Below are positions 8,745 to 47,188 of a DNA stretch of 64,000 nt, piece by piece (positions within the stretch are counted from its first letter, which is position 1; every line of letters starts with the position of its first letter). A program made the position numbers and the translations under genes. The stretch is taken from assembly GCF_018977255.1 (NCBI RefSeq), contig NW_024704765.1, forward strand, positions 6,820,001 to 6,884,000, read 5' to 3'. Source of the DNA: Callorhinchus milii (taxonomy: Eukaryota). Under the pieces are notes generated by a model. That model was not told the DNA's origin. It saw nothing but the letters and a program-made list of their open reading frames with translations, and did no database searches.

Positions 8745-9520
<776 letters not shown>

Positions 9521-13522: not shown

Positions 13523-13570
13523 CTAGTCAATGAGATTGTTGTCATCCTCGATTTCCCCAGCGTGGTCTTC
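13523..13570 (-). CDS. GOLIM4-like last coding exon
   Basis: EDHAGEIEDDNNLID followed by TAG; T-rich acceptor. Confidence 0.72.
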   Translation of the reverse strand, partial: EDHAGEIEDDNNLID

Positions 13571-16500
13571 CTGCCTCAAAAAAAACACAAAGGAACAGTC
13601 AGAGCACCCACTACCCAGTCAAAGGCTACAGACAGACCAGACCGACCGACCCACAGACAGAGGACAGTTAAAAGATGTGCTTCTGGGATTATTGTAAAGT
13701 TCACAGCACTCACGATCTCAGCCTCCTGATCTTCCTGATAGTTTTCCATTCCCTCATCTCCATTTTGTCCTGCTCCTTCATGACCCTGCGTTGCCAAAAA
13801 GAAAAAAAAAAACACGAAAGAAAATAAAAACAGGAACATTCACGTAGGGCCTTTCACATCGAGCTAACGTCTTCGAAGCCACGTAGGGAATACATTAGAA
13901 ATCGACGAAAACCCACAGAGTTCAAACCAAGAACGATTCACAGTGAATTGACTTTGTTGCAGCTTATCCGGGGGAAAGAGCGGGACAGCTGCGAATGCCG
14001 GGAAGGAAATGGCCTTTTTTACTCACCAGGTTTTTTTTTTTTTTTTAAAACCACCTTGATTTGCCGGACATCGAGTTCAGAGACGGACACACGTTCACAC
14101 AAACTTGGCAGTTAACGTGGGAAGCCGAATCCCAGTGCAAATGAACTGGGACTCAGTTAAGACCCGGTGATGGGAGGCGACGGTGGAGCAGGCTCTCTGG
14201 AAGGACCAGGTCAAACAAGCTGCAGGTTCTGCTCACCGCGAGCCCAGGATCTTACACTGACCTTTGGTTCCTGCTTCAGGAAGAGGTCGGGCTCCTTGCC
14301 GGTGTCCAGGGCGCCCTTGGCTGCGAAGCTCGGCTGCTGCTGCTGTTCCGCCTCCTCAAACTCGTCCTCCCCCTGGTTGTTGGGGTCCTGAGCCGGGTCC
14401 TGCTCCGCCCCAGGGATCTGCAAGAGAGAAACCCCAGGAACCAGCCCGGCCGGTGGGAGAGGGGAACGAGGTCAGGCGGCATCGCTCCTCCCTGCCTTCG
14501 CGCCACCTCCTGCCAACTCTCCCACCCACTTCACGTGCCCCACCCGCTCCCCCTCCCCCTCCCCTCCCCGGGTGTTTGACACTTAAATATGGTAATCCCT
14601 CTGCCTCGCTCGCTCGCTCACTATCTCCCTCCCCCCTCTTCATTAATTCGGTCACTCGCTCCACGGACTGTTTGTGGGACGCTGGTGGGCACAATTGGCT
14701 GCCAACAAAATTCACAGTCAATGACTTGCCAGTGTATCCCGCGAAACGCTTTGAGACGTCTCGACGACGTGACGAGGCGCTGTGTCAAATGCCAGGATTA
14801 TAATGATTACTAACAATAATAATAACAACAATAATAATAATCCCGGCGGCGCACGGCATAGTGTGTGTGTGTGCGTGTGCGTGTGCCACAAACAGCCGTG
14901 GGTTGAGTGACGGCATTGTTATTTTACACAGCAGGCAAAGGCAAAGCGGCTCAACTCACAAGGGGTTCCTGCACGATTGACCCTTTCCTGGACCCGAAGT
15001 TTCTCAGCAAAGGTTTCTCGTCTGGTTCGTCCAACTCGTCCTCTGAAAGGCCAGAGCAAAACTGGTTCTGAGTGTGGCTGAGCCCGTGCGAGTGGCAGAA
15101 AGAGGTCTCCGCCACCAACAGGGGGCAGCACTGTCTCACTCTCTCTCTCACTCACTCACTCACACACACACACACACACACAGAGAGCAATGAAGACATT
15201 TGGATTGAAGATTAGGAACTGGCTGAATGGGGCCGAATGCTCTTCGTCCGTGCAGTCGCTTCTCTTCTCTGGGAAGAGTGATGTGTCAAGAAAAGCTGGT
15301 AACACGACACACGGGGGCAGGTTTCTCTCGCCCGGTGACTCGGAGGCGAGAGCGCTACCACTGCGCCAGACTGATACAACAAACAAACAAACAAATAAAT
15401 AAATCAATAAAGACTTTAAATGATGCCAGACCTATATCTAAATCCTCGTCGTCGTCTGACTTCTCCTCCGCGGGCTCTATATTGGCCCACTGGGCGTCCC
15501 TGTCATCTTGGCCTCTCGTTCTCTCCAGGTCCATCAGGTTCTGCCCAGCTTGGCCTCGCCGGCTCACATCATTGATCACTTCATTCCAGCTGTGACACAA
15601 AGAGACACGATGGAGTGGTTCAAACTGCCGGCATCACCCACGGTGACTGCGGCCGAGAGAACATGTCCCACGCGGTGAGAATGCCCCCGGCTCCTCGGAA
15701 CTGCATCCCACAGTCCCCTTCGTCTTGCTCGCTCCCTCCCTCGCCTCCTTCAAAGCACGTCTCAAGACCCTCCTCGTTGACCGCCTGTTCAGCCACCCTC
15801 CCATAACCACCCTCCCTGCCATCCATCTCCCCCAGCCCCCCCGCCCCCACAACCACTGATCCCAACCCCCAGCTCCGGTCCAAATCCCTGACTGTCCAAC
15901 ACCTTGGGACGTCTTCCCGATGTGAAAGGCTCCGTGTAAACGTGTCGTGTGCAGCAGAGGGTACACACCTCTTCAGTTTCCCTCGGTTCTCAGTCTCGCG
16001 ACTGTCTGGCCTCGCGTCACTGACGATAAAGGGCTTCGGCCTCTCTCCGGCCCTTCCCGCCAGCAAGGGACCTTGCGGACTGGCCACATCGAGCGTCTTA
16101 CCCTCCACCACCAGCTCAGGCTTTGTTCCCTGGATTAAATGAGAAGCGAGTTTCGTGAGAACGAGATTCGTTGGAGCTCCCCTCAACTCCCAATTACCAG
16201 TGAATGCAACACACACTCCCTTCGAGGCCTGGTCCATGGCTAATCCACCTCAATACCTTCCTTTTCCATCGTTCCCCACAGTCACCTTTTCTCCCCCAAC
16301 CCAACGCCCCCCACCCCTCTCCGATACCCAAATCCCAACCCGCAGCTCGGGTACAAACCCCCAATTGTCCAGCGCCTTGGGGATGTCCTGCTGACCTGAA
16401 AAGTGCGATGACCAAAAAGTGGTGACACCATTATTAAAAGTCTTAAAGAAAATGATGATTTTTTTTCCAAGATAACAGGGCAGATATCACGACTTTTTGG

Positions 16501-19500
16501 TCACCCGTAAACGCAATGCAACTTGGTTGTCGTTTGGTATTGTTGGTTACCCCAACCCCAGATTCCCCCCCACTCCCCGGGGCTGGTTACCCTCCCCCTT
16601 CCCCTTCCCCGGGGGCTTGTCTAAGACCAAGACCGCCCCCTCACCCCGGGTGTACAAGCAGCCTCACTGCGAGACGCCACGCTCACTAACTCACCGTGGC
16701 TCCTGGCTGCAGGCTGTTCACCGTCCTGGTGAATCGAACCACACGATTGACGCTCTCCTCCTGAGAGCGCGCCCTGGGCCCGTGCCCGGCCCACCCCGCC
16801 AGGCCTGGACCCTGACCCCGGAACGCCGGATGCTCCGGGGCAATTCCCTGCGGGTTTCCGTCTCCTCGGTCAGGGGGAGCCGGGAATGCCTGCCCTCCAG
16901 GAACCAGCCTGTCCAACGGACGTGCAGTCAATTCCTAGGCAGAGAAGCAGCCGGTGAGAGTGCAGATCCCTGATTCAGTCAAACTGTGTGCGGGCAATTG
17001 GCTTTTGTCGCATTTCGCCCACAAAACACACAGTCACTCCACTTTACCGTGTATCCTGTGAAGCGCTTTGAGACGTCTCAAAGACGTGATAAGGTGCTGT
17101 GTCAAATGCCGGGATTATTATCATCAGATGCAAGGAATAATATTATTGTTTTTATATGCAAAGATTATTATTATTATCATCAAACACAAGGAATAATATT
17201 ATTATCATCAAATGCAAGGATTATTATTATAAACCAGATCAGGCGGCAGCCGGAGAGCTTCTGGTGAGTGCATTTATCAAAGGATTTATTCTGTGTGGAA
17301 GGATTTATTCTATTCCACACACATACCCACAAAAAAACTTCAAGGGTCATCAGCTGGGAAGCAGAGAGGCTCATAGAAGCAATTACATTTACAGAGTCAT
17401 GGAGTTCTCCACTGACCCAGTTAGAGATTTAATACAAACAGGAAAGCCTCCAAACCACTGCTTGTGCTGATTACAGTCCATCCTGTCGGTTTATGTGCAT
17501 AACATCACGCAGCATGTTACAGCAGCTAAATGTGGCGTCAATATCATCTCTAAACGAGAATAAAGTAAGTAGTTTTTCTGCTTGAGCTTGACAGACAATT
17601 GCTGTAGAGCGTAGTGACTGCGTATTGGCCAGTGGAACGCAGTACTAATCACCAGCACAATCTCGGAGGCATCGTTAGCCTGGCTCACCAGGAGAAACTC
17701 CAGCCTCTTACAGAGTAGTGGTAGTGCAATGGGATCACTCACAGGATTGAAACGGAGAAGGCAGTTTACCTGACGAGTAATTTAAAAGGCCGGAACAGAA
17801 TTGCGGAACTACATTTCCAACCGTTTTCATCATCAGAGGAAACCGCGACTGTTTTGTGGGGAGGGGGGGGGGGGGGGTCGCTGCTGTGCGCAATCGGCTG
17901 CCGCGTTTCGCCCACAAAGTACACAGTCGCTCCACTTTACAGCGCGTCCCGTGAAGCGCTTTGAGTTGTCTCGAAGACGTGATCAGGCGCCGGGTCAAAC
18001 GCCAGGATTATTAACATTATTGTTATTAACCGTACCTTCTGCGCTGGGACCTGCCAATGGTTGTTGCCGGGAACCGGGGGCTGCCCTCTCAGGGCCTGGT
18101 TCTCTACCCACGGCATTGCAGCGTTCTGTGTGATCCTCTTGAAGCTTGGCATCTTGTGCAGAGCATCCTTCAGCTGCCTGAACTCCTCCGCCTGGGCCTG
18201 GGACACGACACCAATCACTGCCGTCAAGTCAGTTCTGACCACAGGTCACCCACCCGATACACTAACTCCCTTTCCTCTCTCTCTCCGCAGACGCTGCCTG
18301 ACCTGCTGCCTGTTCCCGGCCACTTCCGCTTTTTTCATTCCCACCCATCAGTAGTTTGGTTTGCTTTGGTTTGTCTTAAGCAACGCGATGGGTTCGGGTT
18401 GCGTTTAATAAGAGTTTGTGGACGGGGACGATCTGCTCGTCTCATCGGTTAATGGCCAGTCCCCGGCTGAGGTTTTATTCACCCGATAGCAATACCCTGA
18501 AGTGACATTTGTACCGTTTCTGGTTTTGCCGCTGTTGGGTCGGGGGGGATCAGGGGATACGGGTCAACGGAGGGTGATTGGAGTTGAGGTACAGATCAGC
18601 CGTGGTCTTATAGAAGGGCGCAACAGGTTCGAGGGGCTGAATGGCTGTTCCCATGTTTCTATGACTGAATATTCACCGACTCCCAACCCCCAGCTCCCAA
18701 CATCACACACAGCTCCCCCCCTCCTCCGGTGTGCAATCAGATTCCCTATTAGTACAAATGTAGGTTTTAATGTTAAATACCAGGTCTCAATCCACTGGTT
18801 GCTAAGTGATGGGAGGCGTCGTAACTCATCATCTACCCGAAACAACTCGTTTTACCGCCTGCGAAAGCCACTGCACGCAACACGGCCACTCGCCTCCGCT
18901 ATGATCACCCCACGCAAGATCACTTCGTTCACAGCTTCCCCTTTAATGCCCCTCACTGCCGTCTGTCAACCCAACACTGCAGAATCACTCACACACACCC
19001 CCACACACACACACAACACCCCCACACACATATGCACAAACCATCCACCCACACACACAAATCCCACACTCTCGCACATGGAACCTTTAACATCCAACTG
19101 AACAGACACAGACTGGTTCCTCAGTTTAACGTCTGATCTGAAGGGCCGCGTCTCTCTCAGCGCTGCCTGGGAGGGTCAGCCTAGACCGCCAGCTCAAAGC
19201 CCCGAAGTAGGGCTCGAACCCACAACTTTCAGACTCGTCGGCAAGAGCGCTGCTGACTTGAGCAGCCAGAATGACACCCGGGTGAGACCCAGGAGCTGGG
19301 AGGCTCGGGTGTGCTGCGGCCCCTCACCCCGGGCTGTACCTCGGATTGCTGTAGCTGTGTGTGGACCTGCTGGTGAGCTCTCCTCAGCTGCTTGCTCTCC
19401 TCCTTCAGGAGGGACACGCTATCTGCGGAGCGAGGATAAGTCGCGTCAGAGGAAGCGAGCGGTCACCGTTCGAAGCTCCTGGGGCCGAACCCGATCTGGA

Positions 19501-22500
19501 AACCGCGTCTGTGCAAAGACCTCTCGAGAAGAAAGGTTATCGAGGCATTCGAGCGCGATTCGATCGGGCGCCTCCCGTGGAGCAAACGTCGCGCCTCAAA
19601 GCGCTTCACGGAGATAATACGTTGCCAAGTGGATTGACCGGGTATTTGGGGGGCAAAGACACGGCAGCCAATTGCGCCCATCGCCCTCCCACAAACCGTC
19701 GTGGATTGAGTGACCACATTTTTGGTTTTCATTTTTTTATGGAGAGGTTATTAACCCCCCCCCCACCACCCTCCCGGGGAAAACCATCCACCAATCGATT
19801 AACAACCGGGTTCCTGCTTATTGCTAGGTAAACACAGGCAGGTGTGGGTGTGTGTGGAGTTAGGAAACTTGCCTAGTGTTTCGCCCTGTCCTAACCCGCC
19901 CGGGAATCGAACCCGGGTCCTCTCGCTCGCGAGGCGCGCGCTCTAACCACTACTCCACCGGACTCGTATGAACGTGCGTTAATAACGAGGCTGCTGAGAA
20001 CCTTGTAAGTGGCTGATCTCGGCTTGCTTCTGCTGCTGGCTCTGCGTGTGATGATCCAGAGCCTTCCTGTGCTCCAGCTTCAGGCTGTTGTGTTGCAGCT
20101 GTAAATCCTGTAGCTGTTTCCTCACGTCATCCTGTTGGCTCTGTGCGAGGCGAGAGAGAGAGAGAGAGAGGGAGAGAGAGGGGGGAGGGAAGGTCAGATT
20201 CCTGGCTCAGCTCAAAGCAGCGGTTTAAACCCCCTCCCCTCTTCCCCGACCCGACCCTGTCCTTCTCCCATCACACACGTGGTTGCGTTTCACTCACAAA
20301 ATACAGTCGCGTTGTGTATCCTGCGAAACGCTTTGAGACGTCTCGAAGACTTGATAACAATGCAAGGAATATTGTTATTATTATTGGGTCCAAATCCCTA
20401 ACTGCCCAGCACTGAGAGTCACCCTCCCGATGCGAAAGGCACGGGGGAAAGGTCACTGTACCTAGTCCTCTCCCCCCTCCTCCTCCCTATTTCCAGGAGA
20501 TGAATAACTTTCCCAGCAGACGAACGCTTCAAAGTGATCCCAGGCTTTATTTAATCTAGGAAATGCCCGACAGGGAATGAATGTCCCGGTCACAGCAACG
20601 ATTGGAACAGATCTGGGCAGTCCTGAGTCTGTCAGTGATGTGTTGACGATGCTTTTTACACTTGCCTTCAGTATCTTGTGTTGTGAGGACAGTGCGCTGT
20701 AGCGGTTCATAGCATCCTGCTGTGGAGAACAGTTCACGTTACATTAAAAAAATAATAATAATAACCCTTGCATTTGACATAGCGCTTTCCACGTCTTCGA
20801 GACGTCTCAAAGCTTCACAGAATAGACCGTAAAGCGAATTGACTCTATTTTTGTGGGCAAAACCCGGCAGCCAATTGCGCACAGCAGCGTCCCCACAAAC
20901 AGTCGTGGACGGAAGTGGCCCAATTATTATTGTTTTCTTTTTCTTGAGGGATTATTATCAGCCGTGTGTGTATGTGTGTGTGTGTGGGTGGGTGGTTGGA
21001 GGAAGGAAACTTGCCCGAGGTTTCGCCCTGACCCACCCGGGAATCGAACCCAGGTCCTCTCGCTTGTCTCTAACCACTGAGGGAGGGGTGGGGGAAATGG
21101 AAGGGTTAAGATGAGGGATGTGGGGTAGACAAAACTTGGGAGCCAATGCTTTAGAATAGACTTTCACATCCGGATTTGCTTTTATTTTACCGGCAAAACA
21201 CTTTATATCGCATTTTACTTTTGGCAACTGTGCTTTTTGTTTTTCTGGCCGGAAAGCGCTCGGAGACTTTCACTTGATGCGAAAGGCACCAGGTAAACGC
21301 CAGTCCGTGTTGTTAATTAAACGGGAGCCGAACTAAGATGGGTTTCAGTTTCGGGGGCTGTAAACATTTTGGGGATTAGTGAACCTCAGGTCAGGAGTGT
21401 AGGGAAGAGGGAACAATAGCTACGGAAAAGTGTCTCCTTACCTTTTCTTTACTCAGAGCTTCCTGGGCTTCCAGCTTATACACCAGAAAATCTACAAATA
21501 AACAAAGACACTTCTGCAGGTTCAGTCTGTAACAATAATAATATATAATCCTTGCATTTGATATCGTGCTTTTTCACGTCTTCTCAACGTCTCAAAGCGC
21601 TTCACAGAATAGACTGTAAAGTGCATCGACCGTATATTTGTGGGCGAAACGCTCTCACTGACCTCCACGGTGACTACTTTTATTAAATTCAACCTGGTCA
21701 CAGCCCTGAGGACAGTTGTCTCTTGTGATCCCACACCCCCCCCCCTCTCGAGACTTGACTCTTTGATCGCCCTTTCGGTCATCGCTCCCACCCCCCCCCA
21801 CCCTCGACAGTCTTTATTAAAAGTTAAATCGTGTCGTGTCTTAAAAGTTCTCTCCGAGACATCAGGTTTTGAGGCTGTTGTTCCTCAGAGCTGTGAGAAC
21901 AGACAAATGGCAGCTGTAAGCCACGGCTTCGCGCGATCTCTCTCTCTCTCTCTCTCTCTCTCACCTTCTTTGGTTTTTTTGTGGTCCCCTCTCTCCTTTT
22001 GTAAAGAGCGTTCCAGCCTCGATCGATGTTCGTACACAACTTGCAAGAGAGGAGACAGGGTTAGGGTTAGACGGTGAACCCACACCGGGCTTCTCTACCT
22101 CTCGCTCTTTCTAAAGCTTTCTGTGACGATAACAACAGCAGCAGCAGCAGCAGCAGCAGAGACGTCTCTGAGCGCTTCGCGGGACACGCTGGGAAGTGGA
22201 GCGACGGTGTGCGTTTGTCAGCGAAACACGATCCTCAAGAGGGAAGGAATTCCTACTTGGAAATGCACACGTCACAGACGGTCAGAAATAGACAAAAAAA
22301 AAAAAACTAAAGTAAACTCTGTCGTTTTGTTCAGCGTTATCTGAAAACTTTTCACCGACCGATCGACCGACCGCAGTAAGGAAAAAGGATCATTCTGTGA
22401 AGCAGACAAAGCCAGATTCCCTCCTGAAGTTTGCTAAATAAACTTTCCTGATCTCCTGGATCCTATTTCTTTTCTCAGTGTTAATTCCCCCCCCGTTCGC

Positions 22501-23664
22501 ATTTCACTTGGGTCTTGAGACGGGGTTAGCTTGTCTGTCTGTGTGTGTGTGTGTGTGTGTGTCCCCCTCACCTTGTGTATCTGTGTGTGTGCCCCCCCCC
22601 CCCCCTGTGTGTCTGTGTGTGTGAGATCCCCCCCCCTGTGTGTGTGTGTGTGTCCCCTGTCTCTGTGTGTCTCTGTGCCCCCCCCCCCACCTTGTCTCTG
22701 TGTGTGTGTGTGTCTCTGTGCCCCCCCCCCTTGTGTGTCTCTGTGTCCTCCCCCCCCTGTGTGTCTCTGTGTCCCCCCCCCTGTGTGTCTCTGTGTCCCC
22801 CCCCCCCTGTGTGTCTCTGTGTCCCCCCCCCTGTGTGTCTCTGTGTGTCCCCCCCTGTGTGTCTCTGTGTGTGTCCCCCCCTGTGTGTGTGTCCCCCCCC
22901 CCCTGTGTGTCTCTGTGTCCCCCCCCCCTGTGTGTCTCTGTGTGTGTCCCCCCCCTGTGTGTGTGTCCCCCCCCCTGTGTGTCTCTGTGTGTGTCCCCCC
23001 CTGTGTGTGTGTCCCCCCCCCCTGTGTGTCTCTGTGTGTCCCCCCCTGTGTGTCTCTGTGTGTGTCCCCCCTGTGTGTGTCCCCCCCCCTGTGTGTCTCT
23101 GTGTGTGTCCCCCCCCTGTGTGTGTCGTCCCCCCTGTGTGTCTCTGTGTCCCCCCCCCTGTGTGTCTCTGTGTCCCCCCCCCTGTGTGTCTCTGTGTCCC
23201 CCCCTGTGTGTCTCTGTGTCCCCCCCCTGTGTGTCTCTGTGTCCCCCCCCCTGTGTGTCTCTGTGTCCCCCCCCCTGTGCCCCCCCCCCCCTGTGTGTGT
23301 GTGTGTGCCCCCCCCTGTGTCTCTGTGCCCCCCCCCCTGTGTCTCTGTGTGTCCGCCCCCCTGTGTCTGTCCCCCCCTGTGTCTGTCCCCCCCCCTGTGT
23401 CTGTCCCCCCCCTGTCTCTGTGTGTGTCCCCCCCCCCTGTGTCTCTGTGTGCCCCCCCCTGTGCCCCCCCCCCCCCTCACCTTGTAGCTGAGCGGACACG
23501 GTCTCCTGTTGCTGTTTGTATTTCTGAGCCAAAACCTCAGCGCTCCTCAGGTTCCCCCTCAGGTCACTGTACATATAAACCCCCAAACCCACTCCCACCA
23601 GAGCCACAGCCACAAACCCCGTCTGCCACAGCCCCCTCTGCCTCCGGCAGCCCCCACCCCCCAT
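13523..23664 (-). CDS. Golgi integral membrane protein 4-like (GPP130 family), whole gene, 14 coding exons, about 554 aa
   Basis: Exons assembled by hand with compatible phases: 23664-23481, 22039-21965, 21491-21442, 20719-20666, 20140-20002, 19422-19340, 18197-18036, 16934-16695, 16129-15969, 15589-15432, 15042-14960, 14417-14262, 13785-13714, 13570-13523 (1665 nt, open frame). Type II TM segment, SAQLQVVYEHRSRLERSLQKER, FLVYKLEAQE, RYSAL..QH.ILK and DPNNQGEDEFEEAEQ are GOLIM4 motifs. Confidence 0.88.
13714..13785 (-). CDS. GOLIM4-like exon 13
   Basis: GHEGAGQNGDEGMENYQEDQEAEI; long T tract before acceptor, GTGAGT donor. Confidence 0.8.
14262..14417 (-). CDS. GOLIM4-like exon 12
   Basis: Contains the conserved DPAQDPNNQGEDEFEEAEQ motif; TTGCAG acceptor, GTCAGT donor. 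Confidence 0.9.
14960..15042 (-). CDS. GOLIM4-like exon 11
   Basis: EDELDEPDEKPLLRNFGSRKGSIVQEPL; TTTCAG acceptor, GTGAGT donor. Confidence 0.72.
15432..15589 (-). CDS. GOLIM4-like exon 10
   Basis: SWNEVINDVSRR...EEKSDDDEDLDI; acidic; TCACAG acceptor. Confidence 0.75.
15969..16129 (-). CDS. GOLIM4-like exon 9
   Basis: GTKPELVVEG...ENRGKLK; phase-2 donor matches the next exon. Confidence 0.65.
16695..16934 (-). CDS. GOLIM4-like exon 8
   Basis: Open 240-nt segment between a CCTAG acceptor and a GTGAGT donor; ends VVRFTRTVNSLQPGAT. Confidence 0.7.
18036..18197 (-). CDS. GOLIM4-like exon 7
   Basis: AQAEEFRQLKDALHKMPSFK..., resembles GOLIM4 TQVAEYKQLKDTLNRIPSLR; donor GTACGG. Confidence 0.82.
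19340..19422 (-). CDS. GOLIM4-like exon 6
   Basis: DSVSLLKEESKQLRRAHQQVHTQLQQSE; 83 nt; AG/GT boundaries. Confidence 0.88.
19585..19965 (-). mobile_element. Same SINE family, near full length, reverse orientation
   Basis: Reverse tRNA head GGGAATCGAACCCGGGTCCTCTCGC...CTAACCACT plus body. Confidence 0.85.
20002..20140 (-). CDS. GOLIM4-like exon 5
   Basis: SQQDDVRKQLQDLQLQHNSLKLEHRKALDHHTQSQQQKQAEISHLQ; coiled coil; phases fit. Confidence 0.85.
20666..20719 (-). CDS. GOLIM4-like exon 4 (GC donor)
   Basis: QDAMNRYSALSSQHKILK; CACAG|CAG acceptor, AAG|GCAAGT donor; 54 nt. Confidence 0.88.
20753..21078 (-). mobile_element. Same SINE family, reverse orientation
   Basis: (AAT)n tail, body and head remnant. 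Confidence 0.85.
21442..21491 (-). CDS. GOLIM4-like exon 3
   Basis: DFLVYKLEAQEALSKEK; TTGTAG acceptor, GTAAGG donor; 50 nt. Confidence 0.92.
21965..22039 (-). CDS. GOLIM4-like exon 2
   Basis: VVYEHRSRLERSLQKERGDHKKTKE; AG/GT boundaries; 75 nt. Confidence 0.92.
22535..23478. repeat. Minisatellite (C-run followed by TGTGTGTCTCTGTGT) in GOLIM4-like intron 1
   Basis: Tandem units of about 20-24 nt; source of the spurious long C/V/P-rich ORFs. Confidence 0.97.
23481..23664 (-). CDS. GOLIM4-like coding exon 1 (cytoplasmic tail, TM, start of coiled coil)
   Basis: MGGGGCRRQRGLWQTGFVAVALVGVGLGVYMYSDLRGNLRSAEVLAQKYKQQQETVSAQLQ; donor GTGAG at 23480. Confidence 0.88.
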
Positions 23665-27554: not shown

Positions 27555-28483
27555 ATGGCTGAACACCCGGTGCTGGTGGTGGCGTACGGGCTGCTCGTGT
27601 CCTGTGGGATCCTGGGCAACTCCGCCGTCATCAGCGTCACAATGGACAGCACTTGCGAGAGGAACCGTCTCTCCTCGTCCGACCTCATTCTGATCAACAT
27701 CGCAGTGGCCAACCTGCTGCTGTCCTTGACGAGGAACACCTACTGCTGACCTTGGATGCCGGTCTCCCCGTCTCTTTCTCCAGCGAGGGCTGCAGGCTGA
27801 TGATGTTCGTCTGGACCTGGCTCAGGTCAACCAGCATCTGGGTGACCCTCAGCCTGAGTTGGTTTCACTTTGTCACGGTCAGAACCAGCCGGGGAGCCCT
27901 GGAGAGGCTAAGCGAGAGGAGGCGGGTCATCGCCCTCATGGCGGCGGAGTGGGGAGTCAACCTGGTCTATTCCGGCTTTGCCCTGGGCTACTCCTCCAAC
28001 TCGACCAACAGCACCAACCACCTGGCCGTGATCAGCAGCACCATCCGGCCTCTGCTGGGCTGCGTCTGGACATTCCCAACCAAACAGAGCGGTTTCATCT
28101 ACGCGCTGGTGTCCGTGGTGGTGCATGAGGCCATTCCAGTCGTCCTAATGCTCTACGCCAACGCAGGCACTTTGCTCTTTCTGTACCAACATCACAGGAA
28201 GGTCCAGGACTCTCAGCTCGCAGGGGGCGACCGCATTTCCCACGAGTGGAGAGCGGCCAAAACCATCCTGTATCTGATCGGCCTGTTCGTCTTCTGCTGG
28301 GGAACTCACGTGCTGTCCGTGAACTATTATAACTTCAAAGGAAGCCCTTCAACCCATTATCTACTGGTCATAGCCAGGTTTTCTGCCTCTGGGTTTATAG
28401 GGCTTTACCCCTTGGTGGTGGCGATGGGGCACAGCAAGCTCAAACACAGGCTGAAGAACATCCTAAAGTGTCTTTGTCCGTAG
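27555..28483 (+). CDS. ora3: V1R/ORA family chemoreceptor, ora3-like; 1-nt frameshift at 27738-27741 (pseudogene or assembly error)
   Basis: Frame 1: MAEHPVLVVAYGLLVSCGILGNSAVI...SSDLILINIAVANLLLSLTRNT. Next frame: LLLTLDAG...GCRLMMFVWTWLRS...SSTIRPLLGCVWTFP...VHEAIP..WGTHVLSVNYYN..LLVIARF..MGH.KL. Seven hydrophobic segments; motifs match teleost ora3 as recalled. Restoring one C gives 309 aa. Confidence 0.85.
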
Positions 28484-37212: not shown

Positions 37213-37944
37213 GGGGGGGAGGGGGGGGTGAGGGAGGCGGGGACACGGCCTTGCCCCCCCACCCCCGCCCCCACCCCTCTCCCCGCGGCCTGAAGCCCTG
37301 AGGGCGGGGGAAGCCGCGTCACCGCCCATCACAAAGCCCCGGGGGGGGAGGGGGGGGTAGTGAGTTCAGCGCGTCCCGAAAGCCAGGCCGAGGCTTGAGG
37401 TGCGGCCTAGTTGCTGCCCTCCTCCCCCCCTCTCCCCCCCTCCCCCCCCACACACACACACACCTGAGGGGGGGGGAGGGGGGTCCACCCTCCCGCCACA
37501 CACACACACACCCCCCGAGCCGAGCCGAGGCCTCGGTGTCCGGCCGCCATGCCGCCCGCCTCCCGCTGAGGCCGAGGCGGGTGGGGAGGGAGGGAGGGAG
37601 GGGCCATGTCCCGCAAGCAGGGGCGGGGGGGTCGGGGCAACCGGCCGACCGAACCCGCCGCCGCCGCCGCCGGCGGCAAGGCCCAGGCCCAGGCCCAGCC
37701 CGGGGCCGCCGCCGCCCGCAGGGCCCGAGCCCAGGCCCAGGCCCAGGCCCAGGAGCGGAGGAACCGCCCCCACGGCGGCCCCGCGCAGCGCCAACAGCAG
37801 CAACAGCGCGAGTTCCTCAGCTTCGCCAATCAACTCCAGGCCCTGGGCCTCAGGGTCCGCGAGGTCCCCGGGGACGGGTAAGAGAGGCCTCGCCCACCGC
37901 CCACCGCCGGCCACCGGCCACCCGGGTCCCGCTCACACCGGCAA
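37210..37944 (+). promoter_or_regulatory. GC/CpG-rich OTUD3 promoter and first-exon island
   Basis: Very high GC and CpG density and GC boxes around exon 1. Confidence 0.6.
37606..37877 (+). CDS. OTUD3: OTUD3 exon 1
   Basis: MSRKQ...[23 protein letters not shown]; donor GTAAGA. Confidence 0.93.
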
Positions 37945-40900
37945 NNNNNNNNNNNNNNNNNNNNNNNNNNNNNNNNNNNNNNNNNNNNNNNNNNNNNNNN
38001 NNNNNNNNNNNNNNNNNNNNNNNNNNNNNNNNNNNNNNNNNNNNNNNNNNNNNNNNNNNNNNNNNNNNNNNNNNNNNNNNNNNNNNNNNNNNNNNNNNNN
38101 NNNNNNNNNNNNNNNNNNNNNNNNNNNNNNNNNNNNNNNNNNNNNNNNNNNNNNNNNNNNNNNNNNNNNNNNNNNNNNNNNNNNNNNNNNNNNNNNNNNN
38201 NNNNNNNNNNNNNNNNNNNNNNNNNNNNNNNNNNNNNNNNNNNNNNNNNNNNNNNNNNNNNNNNNNNNNNNNNNNNNNNNNNNNNNNNNNNNNNNNNNNN
38301 NNNNNNNNNNNNNNNNNNNNNNNNNNNNNNNNNNNNNNNNNNNNNNNNNNNNNNNNNNNNNNNNNNNNNNNNNNNNNNNNNNNNNNNNNNNNNNNNNNNN
38401 NNNNNNNNNNNNNNNNNNNNNNNNNNNNNNNNNNNNNNNNNNNNNNNNNNNNNNNNNNNNNNNNNNNNNNNNNNNNNNNNNNNNNNNNNNNNNNNNNNNN
38501 NNNNNNNNNNNNNNNNNNNNNNNNNNNNNNNNNNNNNNNNNNNNNNNNNNNNNNNNNNNNNNNNNNNNNNNNNNNNNNNNNNNNNNNNNNNNNNNNNNNN
38601 NNNNNNNNNNNNNNNNNNNNNNNNNNNNNNNNNNNNNNNNNNNNNNNNNNNNNNNNNNNNNNNNNNNNNNNNNNNNNNNNNNNNNNNNNNNNNNNNNNNN
38701 NNNNNNNNNNNNNNNNNNNNNNNNNNNNNNNNNNNNNNNNNNNNNNNNNNNNNNNNNNNNNNNNNNNNNNNNNNNNNNNNNNNNNNNNNNNNNNNNNNNN
38801 NNNNNNNNNNNNNNNNNNNNNNNNNNNNNNNNNNNNNNNNNNNNNCCNNNNNNNNNNNNNNNNNNNNNNNNNNNNNNNNNNNNNNNNNNNNNNNNNNNNN
38901 NNNNNNNNNNNNNNNNNNNNNNNNNNNNNNNNNNNNNNNNNNNNNNNNNNNNNNNNNNNNNNNNNNNNNNNNNNNNNNNNNNNNNNNNNNNNNNNNNNNN
39001 NNNNNNNNNNNNNNNNNNNNNNNNNNNNNNNNNNNNNNNNNNNNNNNNNNNNNNNNNNNNNNNNNNNNNNNNNNNNNNNNNNNNNNNNNNNNNNNNNNNN
39101 NNNNNNNNNNNNNNNNNNNNNNNNNNNNNNNNNNNNNNNNNNNNNNNNNNNNNNNNNNNNNNNNNNNNNNNNNNNNNNNNNNNNNNNNNNNNNNNNNNNN
39201 NNNNNNNNNNNNNNNNNNNNNNNNNNNNNNNNNNNNNNNNNNNNNNNNNNNNNNNNNNNNNNNNNNNNNNNNNNNNNNNNNNNNNNNNNNNNNNNNNNNN
39301 NNNNNNNNNNNNNNNNNNNNNNNNNNNNNNNNNNNNNNNNNNNNNNNNNNNNNNNNNNNNNNNNNNNNNNNNNNNNNNNNNNNNNNNNNNNNNNNNNNNN
39401 NNNNNNNNNNNNNNNNNNNNNNNNNNNNNNNNNNNNNNNNNNNNNCACCCCCCCCATTACTCCAACACTCCCCCACACACACTCCCCCCATTACTCCAAC
39501 ACTCCCCCCCCACACACACCTCCCCATTACCCCAACCCCACCCCTACACCCCCTCCATTACCCCAACCCCTTCTCCCCCCACCCCCATTACCCCAACACC
39601 CAAGGAGGGTGATCAAAAGGAGGGTCGTGAGACGGGTCTAGAAGGAGACAAGGGAGGGGGGGGTGTGTGAGGCGGAGGGACTGCGGGGTGGAGTTTCAGA
39701 GGGCGGGGGGGGGGGGGGCAGAGTGGCTGAAGTGGGGCGAAGGAGGCGGGGGACATGAAGCAGGCCGGAGCGAGCGGGCGGGTTGGTAAGGGGTTAGGAG
39801 GTCGCAGAGGTAGCGGGGTGGGGGGGTCACACTCCCTTCTCCAGTGTCTCCCCCCCCCCCCAAACCGTTCCCCCATACCCCCCCCAAGTCACCCCATCCT
39901 CACTGCACTGTACCCCCGGCGGTGCCTGTCTGTGCCTGGGACCCGGTGTCCGGAGTGGTACACTGTGGTCAGAGAAACAATGGCTGATTTATTCCCTGAC
40001 TCGTGTGTGAGTGAGTAACCGACTAACGGGGGCTTGAAGGGGGTTTGGGGGTAAGGCGGGATCGTGGGAGGGAATGGAGGGGGGAGTCGGGAGGGCGGTG
40101 TTGGGGGGGGGCTCGAATAATCCCATTGAAATATGTAATTTCTTCGTGCGGCTTAAAGGAACTGCCTGTTTCGAGCCCTTGGCGACCAGTTGGAAGGCCA
40201 TTCTCGCAACCACTTGAAGCATCGGAGGGAGACAGTGGATTACATGGTCAAGCACAGGGAAGACTTTGAGCCGTTCGTGGAGGACGAGGTGCCTTTTGAC
40301 CGTTACGGTGAGTCTTCGAGGACTCAACCCTGGTCCTGCCGGGCGCGTTCAAGTCCTGGGGTGATGAGGTCCTACGTCAAACGCAAGGCTTGCTATTATT
40401 AATAACATTATTGTTGTTATCATCATCATCATGATTATTATTATTATTGGATGCTCCTCTTGACGCCTTGATCCACTGGAAGGGTTCGGGAACAATAGCT
40501 TTCCGGTAAACCGTCGGGAAGTTTCTCCCTGTTTCCTGCGGAGCTGGCTGGCCCAACGTTGCTGCCGCAGATACTGTGGCCCTGACACCAGGTCGTCTGA
40601 CGGGTCTCGGCGTGCGGTGGCCTGAGAAGCAGACGCAGTCCGAACAGTAATGTCACGGCTGGAGTGGAACTGAAGTTGTCTCGCGGCAAATGGCTCAGTC
40701 AGAGCCTTTGATTGGGTGGGGGGGGTTCCAACCCCGGGGTTTAGGGGGAGCACAGTCACCTCGGGGGACCCGGATGGTAATAGTACCAGGTGCCATAAGC
40801 CAACCCAATGGGGATATTGGTGAGGCAGAGCTGAACTTGGCTCCCAGCGAGACCCTATCATGTTTTTTTTGTGTGTGTGTGTGTTTCTAGTCATGAATCT

Positions 40901-43900
40901 GGAAAAGCCGGGTACGTTTGCTGGTAACGATGCCATCGTCGCCTTTGCCAGGAACGCCCAAGTGAATATAGTCATCCACCAGCTCAACGCACCGCTCTGG
41001 CAGGTAACGCACACCGTGCCTCGGGAGTTGCACGCTCACGGAAACCAGGACCGTGCCCTTTGGTCCTCAAGTGGTGACGTCGGCTACAGCGGTTTTTGGT
41101 GGTCGCGCTTTCAGCCCCTACTCTCCCTCCGTCCCTCCATCCGTCCTCGCCCCGTTCCTTCGCCCCGTCTTCAAGTCCCGCCTGAAAAACTTCCTCTTCG
41201 AGCGTGCCTACGGTCACCTCCCGCCTCTCCCTTCCCTTCCTTCCCCCCCACCCCCACCCCCCGCCACTGTCGAGCGCTGCCCAGCTTGTGGGGTTGCTGT
41301 ACAAACTCAAAATGGTCACTGTTGTGTTTACTCCGGGAACGGAAGCCGCACAACACTCGCGCACGAATAAACCTTGTTGTTGTGAATGAGTCACCCAGTT
41401 CTCTGCCAGTGATAAATACAGTATTGTCCTCGGCTTCCTCTGCAACTGTTTTTTAATTATATATATATATATATGTGGAAGATCTTTCAAATGCTTGGAA
41501 TTGAGCGATGGATTTCCTTCCTAGTGTGATTTGGCATGAGTGCGTGTGGGTGGGTGGTGTCTCGTTGATTAAACAAGCAATAACAGCTTGCGTATGCAGC
41601 TCGGGTCACATAAAGATAATGTGCCGGAGCGAAGGCTTCGCGGGGTTAGTGTCGGGCACTGAGCAAAGTGGGAGGGGACCGTAGGCAAGGTCAAAGAGAT
41701 TGGTTTTTGGTGGAGGGATTTAGCGCGCGAGAGAGAGAGAGAGAGAGAGGGTGAGCCAGAGAGGTAGAGCTGAGGAGTTCCAAAGGGAGTGTGCGTAGTA
41801 AAACCGGGAAATTATCCAAGTTCAATGATGTGTCATGTTTCATGACCCATCAAATCTCGCACTGGCCATAAAATGTTGCAGCACAGAAATGGCCCTCTTC
41901 CGGAGGAACAGGAGGAGGAGGCCATTCAGCTCCTCGAGCCTGTTCTGCCATTCAGTTAGATCATGGCTGATCTGTACCTCAACTCCAATGACCTGCCTTT
42001 GCTCCATAGCCCTTGAAACCTTAACCTAACATAAGTCTATCCACTTCAGTCTCAAAAATTTGAATGGATCCAGCATCCACAGCCACTTGAGTCACCTAAT
42101 CTAGTCACACTTTCCCGCATTTCTCCCCCCCCCCCACCCCACCTCCCACCAATTCCTTTTAATCTCAATTCTCCTTCAACGAATTGATGAATTAGTAAAT
42201 GCTACATTGTGTAGCGCGAATCCCACATTCCAACCACCCTCCGTTTAAATGTTTTTCTTACCTCCCTTTCGCGTTTTTTTTTCTTTTTTGGGGGTGGGGG
42301 GGGGAATCGTCTTAAAATTTATGCCTTCTCATTTACCGATAGAACGAATAAGATAATCCTTGTTTACTCCCATCGTAAACCTTTCACGCGGGGCAGCATC
42401 CGGGAGCGCGGAGATGTCTCGACGACATGATAGGGGCAGCATCGAAGTGCAAAGATTGTTATTTTGCTCTATCTCGATGCTGGATTTCGCAATGTTCTTG
42501 GCAACGGATGAGAGAACGTGTGTGGGGATGTGTGTGAGAAACACGGCTTCAGTGACTGCATTGAGAGCCCTTTAGCGCTGACTCAGTCCTTCTAATGCCG
42601 CAGGTTCCCGGAGCGCGGAAGGGCCACGCAGCAGAGCTCCACATCGCCTACAGATACGGGGAGCACTACGACAGCGTCCGAAAGATTAACGATAATTCAG
42701 AAGCGCCGGCTAATCTAAAGACAGAGGTCGGTGCCACCGAGAAGGTTTCATTCAAAAGCCTCTGCACTCTGTTTTACTTTCAGGAACAGCAACACTCGGT
42801 TTCTGTTTTGTAAAACATTCTCTGCTGGCGGGGGTAATAATCCCTTCAAAATAATAATAGTAATAATAATTTGGCCACTGTTTGTGGGGACGCTGCTGTG
42901 CGCAATTGGCTGCCACGTTTCGCCCACAAAATATTACAGTCAATTCACTTTGCAGTATATTCTGTGAAGCGCTTTGAGACGTCTCAAAGACGCGATAAGA
43001 CGCTACATCAAATGCAAGGATTATTATTATTCATTGATTGATTACCATAAGATTCTCTCATTAACTTTTCAAGCTGTTAGGCATCAACTGGAGACGAGAA
43101 AAATCTGTTGGCTCACCTGGCTTGGGCTCACCAAGAAAACATATAAACCAGATAACCCCAGGCCACTCCATCTCTTGTACTCCCTCCTCAACTGAATTCT
43201 TTGCCAAATAGCTGACTTAATTAATACCTTCTCTGAATTTCTTGACACAATTCCTGTCACCTCGAGGGCGGGTCGGGCCTTGCGTTCGGTCTCTTGTCTC
43301 GCGCTCAACCTCGGTGTACCCGCCCACAGATGCTGATCAAGGACGATTCGAAGAAGAAAGACGGGAACACGACATGCAATTATCGGGCCGAAGACATACG
43401 GGATTTTGAGAGCGAACCGACCGAGACGGAGGTGGACGACGCAGTTCAGAAAGTGCGCAATGCGACGGGGTGCACGGTAAGTTTCTCCCTCAAAACACAT
43501 ACAAGTCACTGGGCTCTGCGATATGTTCTGTGAAGTGCTTTTAGATGTCTCAGTGAAGTGATAAGGTGCTTACATCAAATGCGAGCACCTTATCACTCGT
43601 ATGATATAATTATGTTATATTATGCACTTTTCTTGCAGGACACGGATTTAATTGTTCAGAGTCTGGAGGTGGAAAGCTATAACATAGAGTCAGCTATTGC
43701 CGCCATCTTACAGATGCATGAGTTGCCAAATTACGGTGAGTGGATCCACCCTGGTCTCAATCAGTCTCAATTTAAAAGGACTTTTCGCGAATCTATGCCA
43801 GGAAGATATAATTTCCACTCTTCCACTAATTCATTTATTTATTTATTTTTGGGGTGGGGGTGGGGGAGGTGGTTCCACGTTCTCTGTCGAGCTCTTTTTG

Positions 43901-45367
43901 CCCCCAGCGCCTTGGGATGTCCTCCCGACATGAAAGCAAATGTTTTCGCACGAATGTCAACGTACAGTTAGTCCTCGCGAGCAGACTAGGGGCTTTTTGT
44001 ACTGCGCTTTTACGTGACTCTTGTTTTATTAGCTTCCGATACAATCTCGAGTCGTAACTTTATGGTGGGTGTTTGTCTGTTCGGGAGACCAATTCCCACA
44101 CAACAGACTGTTGACTTACTGGTACGTTCCAGTCATAAAAGTGAATACTTCTGTTTATTGCTCCTGCTCTGTGAGATTTACTCAAAGTACAGCAACTGTT
44201 TATTGACCAAAAACATCCTGACATATTGGTGGGTGGGGGAGGAGGGGAGATTTTGCATTGCTGGGATGGAAAGTTTTACTTCGGAACATTATTCTAAATG
44301 GTCTTCTGGACTAGAAGGGGGTGTGCGGAGGGAGTGTGGGGGGCGGGGGTCCAACCTTTTAGCTGCTGAGGCCCGGATGCCCTATTTGAGAAATGTCCGT
44401 GGGCCGAAAAAGCAACATTTTTGTGTTTGCGTTCCAGAAACAGAACATAACATTTACGGGTTTATGGAGGGAGCGGGTGGGCAGGTGAAATGGAGGGAGG
44501 GGGTGGGCTGGGGGCCGGATTTGGCCCGCGGGCCGCCAATTGGATCACCCTGTTCGAAGACAGCAACAAAAATGACATTTGTAGAGCGCCTTTCACGTCA
44601 GAAGGATGTCCCGCGGCGCTGAGGGCATAGCCTAATAGCTTCCTGTGCACCTTCTGCTTGTTGTCTAACCCCGTTGCCCTGACAGGAATCTCTGTGACCC
44701 TGTTCTCTCGCTGAATTAGATGCCGATGACAAGACATGTACGAGAGGCTGTAACAGTGACTGTCAGTGTCGGTCTCCACTGTGGATGGAGAACGGAAGCG
44801 GCTCCAGGATTTTCGGCCCCCATGTAGCCGACGTGGGAGAAAAGGAGAATAACAGGACGCTAAATGAGAAGGAGGACAACAAAAGAAGCAAGAATAAGCC
44901 GTCAAAGGTATGTTTCTTTTTCTTGGGTCAGCCGGGAGTCTGACACGCACGGAAACCTATGGCTGTGCTTGAGCGTTTCCGAGCCCAACTGAGAATTCCG
45001 TGCATCCCACCTACACGTGGAGACTCTAGAGTTAGATGAAAAGCGTGTTAAACTGTGTGCGCGCGTGTGTGTTTGTGTGTGAGAGCCTGTGGGCATGCAC
45101 GTGTGTGTGGAGTAGAGATGTCCTGATGCAAAAGGCGCCATATCGAACGTAAGGACTGTTGTTGTTATTATTAATCTGCCGTTTTCTCTCTCGTTAAAAC
45201 CCGAGGTGACAAACAGGCAGAGAAAAGAGCAGCAAAGGCTGGAGAGGAAGAAACGGCAGGAGGAAAGGCATCGGCAAAAGTTCCTGGACTGCAAGAGCAA
45301 CAATGAAGGCGCAGAGGCTCAGGCACCAGTCACTCTGGTTAAGACATTCGCCACTTTAAACATTTGA
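37606..45367 (+). CDS. OTUD3: OTU deubiquitinase 3, whole gene, 8 coding exons, about 416 aa
   Basis: Exons 37606-37877, 40159-40307, 40891-41003, 42604-42726, 43330-43476, 43639-43735, 44720-44907, 45206-45367 (1251 nt, all GT-AG). Catalytic PGDGNCLFRAL and YGEHYDSV motifs, UBA-like region, C-terminus [12 protein letters not shown]. Confidence 0.96.
37945..39445. other. Assembly gap (N run) in OTUD3 intron 1
   Basis: About 1.5 kb of N with an isolated 'cc' at 38846-38847. Confidence 0.99.
39446..39600. repeat. C-rich minisatellite (CCCCCCATTACYCCAAC...) at the gap edge
   Basis: Tandem degenerate units. Confidence 0.85.
40159..40307 (+). CDS. OTUD3: OTUD3 exon 2
   Basis: [29 protein letters not shown]...[14 protein letters not shown]. 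Confidence 0.96.
40891..41003 (+). CDS. OTUD3: OTUD3 exon 3
   Basis: [35 protein letters not shown]. Confidence 0.96.
42604..42726 (+). CDS. OTUD3: OTUD3 exon 4
   Basis: [31 protein letters not shown]. Confidence 0.96.
43330..43476 (+). CDS. OTUD3: OTUD3 exon 5
   Basis: MLIKDDSKK...[16 protein letters not shown]; donor GTAAGT. Confidence 0.92.
43639..43735 (+). CDS. OTUD3: OTUD3 exon 6
   Basis: [26 protein letters not shown]. Confidence 0.93.
44720..44907 (+). CDS. OTUD3: OTUD3 exon 7
   Basis: ...[14 protein letters not shown]...[10 protein letters not shown]; donor GTATGT. Confidence 0.88.
45206..45367 (+). CDS. OTUD3: OTUD3 exon 8 (last coding exon)
   Basis: [25 protein letters not shown]...[12 protein letters not shown] followed by TGA. 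Confidence 0.94.
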
Positions 45368-46516: not shown

Positions 46517-47188
46517 ATGGCCGAGACGCAGGTGGACTTCGATGGAGATGGCGATGTGGCTCTCTCGGAGCTGGAGTGTCCCGTGTGCTTCAACAGCTAC
46601 GAGTTCTTTGTCCGCAAGCCCAAGCTGTTGGCCTGCCAGCACGGCTTCTGTGCCATCTGCCTCAAAGTCATCCTGGAGGAGAAGGACGGTTGCTGGGTGG
46701 TGCCTTGCCCTCTGTGCAGGCGTTACACTCTGGCCCTGGACGCTTCCGTGGCCAACTTGCCGGACAACCCCCGGGTCGTGGACCTACTCTCCAGGAGGAC
46801 GTGCCCTTTCCCCGAGTCCGTCCCCGAGGTACTCCTCGTTCCGCACCTGCTTCTGCCGATGGCGGACGCCGGGGTCGGGGGCGAAGTCCCGGAGGTCAGA
46901 GAGGACCTCGACTTTCACGTGGACCAGGGCGAGATCTTGCTCGCCGGCTGTGCCGAAAGCGCCACCAAGCGCTTCCTGTTGACCCTGATCTTCTTCCTGA
47001 TCATCGTGCTCGCGGTCCAGTATTTCGTCAATAAAGCGTCTCTCGTCTGGGTGACTGTGGTGCTGGGCTCGCTCAGTGCCCTCATCACGTTAACCCTGCT
47101 CTACAGCTGCTGTCAGAAGAGAGGCCACAGACGACTGGGCGCATCCTGCAACTGTAACTGTCCGTGTCTCCCCGCGACCAACAACTGA
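46517..47188 (+). CDS. RNF186: RING finger E3 ubiquitin ligase RNF186-like; single exon, two C-terminal TM helices
   Basis: LECPVC...PKLLACQHGFCAICLK...W..PCPLCR C3HC4 RING closely matching RNF186; two hydrophobic segments near the C-terminus; good Kozak context (ATCATGG); adjacent to OTUD3 as in human 1p36.13. Confidence 0.85.
   Translation: MAETQVDFDGDGDVALSELECPVCFNSYEFFVRKPKLLACQHGFCAICLKVILEEKDGCWVVPCPLCRRYTLALDASVANLPDNPRVVDLLSRRTCPFPESVPEVLLVPHLLLPMADAGVGGEVPEVREDLDFHVDQGEILLAGCAESATKRFLLTLIFFLIIVLAVQYFVNKASLVWVTVVLGSLSALITLTLLYSCCQKRGHRRLGASCNCNCPCLPATNN

What the first reader, a model, noticed from the sequence alone, without database searches (positions are those of the whole stretch)
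13523..23664. Second GOLIM4/GPP130 gene in a 1p36-type neighbourhood: candidate ohnologue lost in mammals
Seen: an intact 14-exon, ~554-aa type II Golgi protein whose N-terminal coiled coil and DPNNQGEDEFEEAEQ motif are GOLIM4-like, but whose middle and C-terminus are divergent and shorter (ends EDDNNLID rather than the RRAEM of human GOLIM4 as recalled). Known: human GOLIM4 lies at 3q26, whereas the neighbours here (FNDC10, OTUD3, RNF186) are 1p36 genes, and 1p36/3q26-28 form a whole-genome-duplication paralogon (PRDM16/MECOM, SKI/SKIL, PRKCZ/PRKCI, TP73/TP63). Inference: this is an ancient paralogue absent from mammals, with unknown Golgi or manganese-trafficking function.
Basis: partly seen in the sequence, partly recalled or inferred. 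Interest (0 to 1): 0.7.

Follow-up and report, generated by a model that had tools for sequence, protein, structure and literature searches.

The report
GOLIM4 twin missing from placental mammals
This is an intact, spliced second copy of the Golgi protein gene GOLIM4, kept from sharks to platypus and marsupials, likely born in an early vertebrate genome duplication and likely lost in placental mammals, and it lacks a short stem segment that likely matches the one human GOLIM4 needs to bind the Golgi calcium/manganese pump.

Summary
The gene is real: 14 exons on the minus strand (23664-13523), 554 aa, identical to a database protein named 'GOLIM4-like' of Callorhinchus milii, with splicing supported by contigs of probable RNA runs. 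The genome holds a second, canonical GOLIM4 on contig C11 beside neuroserpin and PDCD10. Trees give two clades, each running from chimaera to mammals, and reject the window protein as a GOLIM4 orthologue (AU p 0.0005). SKI/SKIL and PRDM16-MECOM-type pairs on the same two contigs fit a whole-genome-duplication origin. 'Lost in mammals' is wrong: platypus, echidna and eight marsupial genera keep it. No placental copy appeared in the listed hits of three searches, so the loss is likely placental. New here: none of 167 paralogue proteins examined has the 28-residue exon-7 segment, which in human GOLIM4 is likely the exon needed to bind ATP2C1; the manganese-response motif DFLV and the convertase site are kept. 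It likely works as a cycling Golgi coiled-coil protein fixed in the short-isoform form. It is already auto-annotated in many species; I found no paper describing it, but one key supplement was unreadable. Modest interest.

The parts
23481..23664 (-). Exon 1 coding part: ATG, short basic tail, transmembrane helix, start of stem
   Evidence: (contig X4 covers 23481-23636 and continues into exon 2)
21965..22039 (-). Exon 2 (75 nt): holds the HRSRLER convertase-type site
   Evidence: same size and phase as the C11 gene
21442..21491 (-). Exon 3 (50 nt): holds DFLV, the motif needed for the manganese response of human GPP130
   Evidence: PMC4230593
20666..20719 (-). Exon 4 (54 nt), followed by a GC-AG intron
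   Evidence: spacing in contig X4 fits
20002..20140 (-). Exon 5 (139 nt), stem
19340..19422 (-). Exon 6 (83 nt), stem
18198..19339 (-). Intron 6: place where canonical GOLIM4 has its 84-nt exon 7; no remnant found
   Evidence: best tblastn E 0.065 against E 2e-15 to 3e-6 on C11; joint in 4 of 4 runs
18036..18197 (-). Exon 7 (162 nt): end of stem; matches exon 8 of the C11 gene
16695..16934 (-). Exon 8 (240 nt), alternatively spliced; holds the clade motif RFTRTVNS
   Evidence: included in X1 and X2, skipped in X3; catshark isoform P0002 also lacks it
15969..16129 (-). Exon 9
15432..15589 (-). Exon 10: short conserved helix (residues 384-396) in the disordered tail
14960..15042 (-). Exon 11
14262..14417 (-). 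Exon 12: DPNNQGEDEFEEAE motif
13714..13785 (-). Exon 13
   Evidence: 72-nt gap in contig X3 fits
13523..13570 (-). Exon 14 coding part and stop; the contigs run on as 3' UTR below 13300
8745..9520 (-). Neighbour FNDC10 (synteny marker; changes frame once in this assembly)
37605..45364 (+).
   Evidence: Pfam OTU at 40157-40399
46517..47188 (+).

Best explanation
The window holds an intact, spliced GOLIM4 paralogue that forms its own clade from chimaera to marsupials; it likely arose by whole-genome duplication, was likely lost in placental mammals, and is predicted to be a type II Golgi membrane protein that cycles through endosomes by its lumenal coiled-coil stem. Shown: gene, splicing, second copy on C11, two clades, presence in monotremes and marsupials, absence of the exon-7 segment. 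Inferred mechanism: a short basic tail and one helix anchor it; the membrane-proximal stem (residues about 36-107), nearly unchanged from GOLIM4, would bind sortilin, cluster in high manganese through the DFLV region and be sent to lysosomes, and would be shed by PC7/furin at HRSR. Because it lacks the segment that likely equals human exon 7, it would not recruit the ATP2C1 pump and would act like the short GOLIM4 isoform. Its own acidic, proline-rich tail likely handles a different set of secretory cargo.
For: Gene model and splicing. Only two loci match in the genome, C24 and C11. C11 copy encodes P0147 and lies beside a TRPV-like gene, neuroserpin, PDCD10, a WD40 gene and a second serpin, the order given for GOLIM4 in PMC9664204 (passages). 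C24 carries SKI and TP73, C11 carries SKIL and MECOM, and C24 has a second PR domain of the MECOM/PRDM16 pair. Tree of 54 rows: paralogue clade 29 rows, support 94/92; canonical clade 14 rows, 95/98. On 25 of those rows the AU test rejects window+canonical (p 0.0005) and window+C11 (p 6e-12). Exons 1-6 share phases with the C11 gene. Mammals: 3 monotreme and 10 marsupial rows, 0 placental, among the best 120 of 278 hits to the platypus protein; 0 mammals among the best 120 of 548 hits to the window stem. Stem: 38 of 46 residues identical to rabbit GOLIM4 over 50-95, DFLV 4 of 4; 51 of 58 positions share the commonest residue between clades. Exon-7 segment in 0 of 167 paralogue proteins, present in lamprey and in canonical proteins. 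Functions of these segments in human GPP130: PMC4230593, PMC5597328, PMC12250082, PMC11178546, PMC8373120 (passages). Model: helices 10-80 and 85-210, tail disordered.
Against: No placental genome was searched: absence rests on ranked hit lists that hid 158 of 278 and 428 of 548 hits, and 176 of 326. Paralogon support is two gene pairs 1.4-10 Mb from the genes; the C24 PR exon scored higher to MECOM (53 bits) than to PRDM16 (45 bits), so its name is by elimination; TP63 was not found, and DIX and PB1 searches added no C11/C24 pair. Lamprey placement is unresolved, so first versus second duplication round is open. Only 3 of the 14 canonical rows carry a name. The 167 proteins are isoform clusters heavy in birds and were picked by motifs near DFLV, which inflates motif counts. 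All functional steps are transferred from human cell studies; the aspartate of DFLV alone was not required there. The current RefSeq-derived models start at Met31 and lack the membrane anchor.
Confidence: 0.72

Rival explanations
1. It is the ordinary GOLIM4 orthologue, moved to a new place.
For: NCBI names the current window model 'Golgi integral membrane protein 4'. It keeps the DPNNQGEDEFEEA motif that the chimaera C11 protein lacks.
Against: A second gene on C11 holds the GOLIM4 neighbourhood and the canonical motifs; AU test p 0.0005; lungfish and chimaera each have one named protein in each clade.
Confidence: 0.01
2. It is an old single-gene or small segmental duplicate on the jawed-vertebrate stem, not a whole-genome-duplication product.
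For: No immediate neighbour of one copy was found to be a paralogue of a neighbour of the other; the linked pairs lie megabases away; two further family searches gave no pair.
Against: SKI/SKIL and the MECOM/PRDM16-type pair sit on the same two contigs in matching assignment; the split predates the chimaera-bony fish divergence; introns are kept, so it is no retrocopy.
Confidence: 0.12
3. It is a real ohnologue but functionally a redundant backup of GOLIM4, lost from placentals (and perhaps most teleosts) without consequence.
For: The stem is nearly the same as in GOLIM4. The gene sits in a GC-rich, compact block (gene GC 0.54 over 10 kb against 0.43 over 39 kb on C11). It is shortened and fast-evolving in reedfish, conger and arapaima.
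Against: Kept from chimaera to marsupials with clade-specific tail motifs absent from canonical proteins (RFTR-type 139 of 167 against 0 of 11; MDAG 127 of 167 against 0 of 11) and a fixed loss of the exon-7 segment.
Confidence: 0.3
4. It is not lost in placentals; a divergent copy exists but ranked below the listed hits.
For: All three protein searches listed only part of their hits.
Against: A platypus-seeded search ranked 13 non-placental mammal rows and frogs in its best 120 but no placental; the 8 unnamed rows there match birds, lizards and frogs. Of 147 representative hits, 2 had a monotreme or marsupial best match: platypus itself and a 76-aa fragment 98% like koala.
Confidence: 0.12

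Closest known systems
GOLIM4 / GPP130 / GIMPc (human; chimaera C11 gene P0147)
   Same: Type II layout, long helical stem, phases of exons 1-6, DFLV motif, HRSRLE site, acidic disordered tail; DPNNQGEDEFEEA motif shared with bony-vertebrate GOLIM4.
   Different: Separate clade and locus; no exon-7 segment; lacks the KSxYEEQ, GNPDQQED and RRAEM-type motifs (0 of 167) and has its own RFTR-type, SWQD-type, MDAG and terminal DDYY-type motifs; tail richer in Pro and Gly, half the Glu.
GOLIM4-S / GOLIM4-deltaE7, the short human splice isoform
   Same: Both lack a stem segment; the chimaera C11 gene also has an isoform without its seventh exon (P0292).
   Different: Here the lack is fixed in a separate gene. 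That the missing 28 residues equal human exon 7 is inferred from exon order on C11, not from a human sequence.
[quoted passage not shown]
   Same: The named platypus, marsupial, bird, reptile, amphibian and fish proteins tested are members of this clade.
   Different: They carry only an automatic name; chicken LOC419409 is tied to this clade by its name, not by a sequence test here.
Ohnologues lost on the way to eutherians (Kuraku and Kuratani 2011, PMC3296468)
   Same: Same pattern: present in chicken, absent from eutherians, paralogue retained.
   Different: GOLIM4 is not named in the main text; the list of 147 genes is in a supplement that could not be read.

Membership tests
GOLIM4/GPP130 protein family | Short N-terminal tail plus one transmembrane helix (type II) | tested here: met
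   Hydropathy peak at residues 11-35; exon 1 in contigs; topology itself is inferred
GOLIM4/GPP130 protein family | Long helical stem homologous to the GPP130 stem | tested here: met
   Helices 10-80 and 85-210 at pLDDT about 70-96; 37 of 52 identical to rabbit GOLIM4 over 36-87
GOLIM4/GPP130 protein family | DFLV 88-91, needed for the manganese response | tested here: met
   4 of 4 identical; role from PMC4230593 passages
GOLIM4/GPP130 protein family | PC7/furin site HRSR-LEK | tested here: met
   Both arginines kept, Lys73 replaced by Arg; site from PMC12250082 passages
GOLIM4/GPP130 protein family | Golgi residence, endosomal cycling, manganese-induced turnover | not testable with these tools
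   Needs cell experiments
Canonical GOLIM4 orthologue | Groups with vertebrate GOLIM4 | tested here: not met
   AU p 0.0005; separate clade
Canonical GOLIM4 orthologue | Lies beside SERPINI1/PDCD10/TRPV7-8 | tested here: not met
   That neighbourhood belongs to the C11 copy
Canonical GOLIM4 orthologue | Has the alternatively spliced 84-nt exon 7 | tested here: not met
   0 of 167 paralogue proteins; no remnant in intron 6
Vertebrate whole-genome-duplication ohnologue | Duplication older than the jawed-vertebrate radiation | tested here: met
   Both clades contain chimaera and bony vertebrates
Vertebrate whole-genome-duplication ohnologue | Copies on paralogous chromosome segments | tested here: met
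   SKI on C24, SKIL on C11; MECOM on C11, a MECOM/PRDM16-type PR exon on C24; two pairs only, and two other family searches gave none
Vertebrate whole-genome-duplication ohnologue | Assignable to the first or second round | tested here: inconclusive
   Sea lamprey joins the paralogue clade at 98/90 in one tree, unresolved in the other; alternatives not rejected (p 0.26 and 0.06)
Gene lost in all mammals | No orthologue in monotremes or marsupials | tested here: not met
   Platypus, echidna and 8 marsupial genera
Gene lost in placental mammals | No intact orthologue in placental genomes | tested here: inconclusive
   0 placental rows among listed hits; placental genomes not available for search

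The most novel reading that the evidence does not exclude
The paralogue is a hard-wired short-form GOLIM4, uncoupled from the ATP2C1 pump, that serves bulk glycoprotein secretion in the oviduct; it was kept in lineages that wrap eggs in oviduct-made coats (cartilaginous fish, reptiles, birds, monotremes, marsupials) and lost when placentals gave these up. The hint: chicken LOC419409 'GOLIM4-like' is among the 30 most up-regulated genes in the laying magnum (5.4-fold, PMC8088581) and among the top 15 up-regulated in a uterus comparison (PMC12027243), both times with avidin and melanotransferrin. Against: it also appears in ductus arteriosus and tracheal vesicle lists, and its identity with this clade rests on its name.
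Probability: 0.12. Interest if true: 0.6.

Novelty: new member of a known kind. Interest (0 to 1): 0.32.

Why it matters
GOLIM4 is studied as a single gene in human cells (manganese sensing, secretory control in cancer). A natural twin with the same membrane-proximal stem but without the exon-7 segment and with a different tail is a ready-made comparison for which part does what. It also means that GOLIM4 work in chicken, Xenopus or opossum has a second gene to account for, and that database names mix the two up. As an evolutionary pattern (an ohnologue dropped on the placental stem) it is of a well-known kind.

Tried and rejected
Homodimer prediction of the stem (residues 34-218, two copies): no verdict, score 0.60 but one control 0.46; not used either way. 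Pfam found no family for exons 1, 7 or 12. A third hit on C6 (E 0.019, internal stop) was not matched and was taken as chance. DIX and PB1 family searches added no C11/C24 pair; TP63 was not found. No listed sequencing run is on record as RNA; tissues are unknown and contig depth was not used for expression. Simakov 2020 (PMC7269912, passages) did not give the chromosome assignment needed to date the duplication. Paper searches for a description of this paralogue found none; supplement searches by gene name were blank in PMC5901865 (19 files) and PMC10195156 (1 file), which may list genes by other ids. Three look-ups in earlier findings returned nothing. Two rows (P0325, P0287) were dropped from the tree because they lacked the anchor motif. 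Absence from zebrafish-type teleosts was suspected from the hit lists but not tested.
Full report
Observation. Exons picked by reading all frames join into a 14-exon, 1665-nt frame on the minus strand, 23664 to 13523, giving 554 aa without internal stop; intron 4 has a GC donor, the others GT. The protein is identical to P0010, an older RefSeq model labelled 'GOLIM4-like' of Callorhinchus milii. The newer models (P0003, P0006-P0009) are labelled 'GOLIM4', and P0003 starts at Met31 without the membrane anchor. Contigs from runs guessed to be RNA skip five of the introns in 4 of 4 runs in the part of the table shown, and piece coordinates fit the other exons. The exon 1-2 joint is seen in 4 of 4 runs, one contig reaching 23636 and so covering the anchor. 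Exon 8 is present in two runs and skipped in frame in another. The gene is real and spliced.

A second copy. Searches of the own genome with exon 1, with P0003 and with P0147 give two loci, C24 (the window) and C11:18.43-18.47 Mb. The C11 gene encodes P0147, labelled 'GOLIM4a'. Downstream of it lie an ankyrin plus ion-transport gene, neuroserpin, PDCD10, a WD40 gene and a second serpin (123 of 794 candidate frames were scanned). PMC9664204 (passages) describes SERPINI, TRPV7/8 and GOLIM4 as conserved neighbours. So C11 holds the true GOLIM4. Exons 1-6 of the two genes share phases, and exons 2, 3, 4 and 6 share sizes.

Neighbourhood. The window gene lies next to FNDC10 with SSU72 just before the window; a tailed-frog orthologue is even annotated under the SSU72 name. 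C24 also carries SKI and TP73; C11 carries SKIL and MECOM; a PR exon on C24 belongs to the MECOM/PRDM16 pair but could not be named on its own. The human positions 1p36 and 3q26 are recalled, not from a call. Two linked pairs fit a paralogon; they lie megabases away, and DIX and PB1 searches added none.

Phylogeny. With 54 rows and 240 columns of the N-terminal region, the window protein falls in a clade of 29 rows (94/92) apart from 14 canonical rows (95/98). The clade holds sharks, rays, reedfish, paddlefish, bowfin, conger, arapaima, coelacanth, lungfish, caecilian, frogs, reptiles, birds, monotremes and marsupials (names). On 25 of the 54 rows the clade has 100/98, and the AU test rejects grouping the window protein with canonical GOLIM4 (p 0.0005) or with the C11 protein (p 6e-12). 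Lamprey is unresolved: sister to the paralogue clade in the smaller tree, but other placements are not rejected (p 0.26, 0.06). Only 3 of 14 canonical rows carry names (chimaera, lungfish, rabbit).

Mammals. The representative search (best 150 of 326) held a platypus protein. Seeding with it gave, among the best 120 of 278 hits, 3 monotreme rows and 10 marsupial rows from 8 genera (Dromiciops, Gracilinanus, Monodelphis, Trichosurus, Petaurus, Phascolarctos, Sminthopsis, Sarcophilus) and no placental; the 8 unnamed rows match birds, lizards and frogs best. The best 120 of 548 hits to the window stem held no mammal. A placental-stem loss is therefore likely but not shown, since no placental genome could be searched and part of each list was hidden.

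Anatomy and likely working. AlphaFold2 gives helices 10-80 and 85-210, a disordered tail and one short helix at 384-396 (mean pLDDT 59, high only in the stem). In human GPP130, residues 50-95 carry the manganese response and DFLV 88-91 is required (PMC4230593, passages); sortilin likely binds 36-87 (PMC5597328, passages); PC7 and furin cut at HRSR-LEK (PMC12250082, passages). The window protein matches rabbit GOLIM4 at 38 of 46 positions over 50-95 and 37 of 52 over 36-87, with DFLV intact; across 170 paralogue and 15 canonical proteins, 51 of 58 positions from 50 to 107 share the commonest residue (rows were picked by a motif in this region). These activities are thus likely kept. The clear difference is a 28-residue segment, the seventh exon of the C11 gene: 0 of 167 paralogue proteins have it (one longer row has an insertion elsewhere), it is present in sea lamprey and in 5 of 10 canonical rows at the standard spacing and skipped in 3, and intron 6 of the window gene shows no remnant. 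Human exon 7 lies in the stem, is alternatively spliced, and is needed to bind ATP2C1 and to rescue secretion (PMC11178546, passages); the long form also binds RAB26 more strongly (PMC8373120, passages). That the 28 residues equal human exon 7 is inferred from exon order. The tail has clade-specific motifs and lacks the canonical ones. Best reading: a cycling Golgi protein with the manganese- and sortilin-responsive stem, fixed in the short form, with its own tail. All functional steps are inferred.

Expression hints. Chicken LOC419409, labelled 'GOLIM4-like' (id recalled, link to this clade by name only), occurs in 5 papers: up 5.4-fold in laying magnum (PMC8088581, section 5), among the top 15 up in a uterus comparison (PMC12027243, passages), and in lists from ductus arteriosus, tracheal vesicles and a selection scan (PMC6428269, PMC8780788, PMC8230197, passages). 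This supports a secretory-tissue role weakly and argues against strict oviduct specificity.

Novelty. The gene is auto-annotated in dozens of species. Six paper searches found no description of it as a paralogue. Kuraku and Kuratani 2011 list 147 chicken genes without eutherian orthologues; the main text does not name it and the supplement could not be read, so it may already be listed there. The library lacks most subscription journals.

Verdict. Observation confirmed; ohnologue reading supported; 'lost in mammals' corrected to 'likely lost in placentals'. A new member of a known kind, with one useful testable twist, the fixed lack of the exon-7 segment. Interest 0.32.

Noticed in passing
window 27555-28483 (+) and about 34360-35289 (+): Two tandem single-exon receptor genes with Pfam 7tm_1, TAS2R and V1R hits, about 40% identical to each other, likely V1R/ORA type; the first changes frame near 27740.
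   Followed up: partly
window 8745-9520 (-): FNDC10 also changes frame near 9240. Two such breaks within 20 kb suggest assembly indels rather than two pseudogenes; not checked against reads.
   Followed up: partly
window 20665-20664 (-): Intron 4 of the gene has a GC donor; the same intron of the C11 gene has GT.
   Followed up: partly
window 23575-23664 (-): The current RefSeq-derived model P0003 starts at Met31 and misses the membrane anchor, though a contig covers exon 1 to 23636.
   Followed up: yes
G000:C11:18430744-18469480 (L004-L007, L014): The chimaera canonical protein P0147 and a shark-like canonical protein P0143 lack the DPNNQGEDEFEEA motif that bony-vertebrate GOLIM4 and the paralogue keep.
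   Followed up: partly
L009:3763-9933 (-): Ankyrin plus ion-transport gene next to the C11 GOLIM4, likely TRPV7 or TRPV8 as described in PMC9664204.
   Followed up: no
P0153, P0172, P0297 (conger, arapaima, reedfish): The paralogue is shortened and on long branches in these fish, and no named hit came from zebrafish-type teleosts; a second independent loss is possible.
   Followed up: no
G000 small contigs C668, C936, C969, C1096, C1143, C1226, C1362, C1419: Eight small contigs carry near-identical PR-domain exons, suggesting an expanded PRDM gene family or a collapsed repeat.
   Followed up: no
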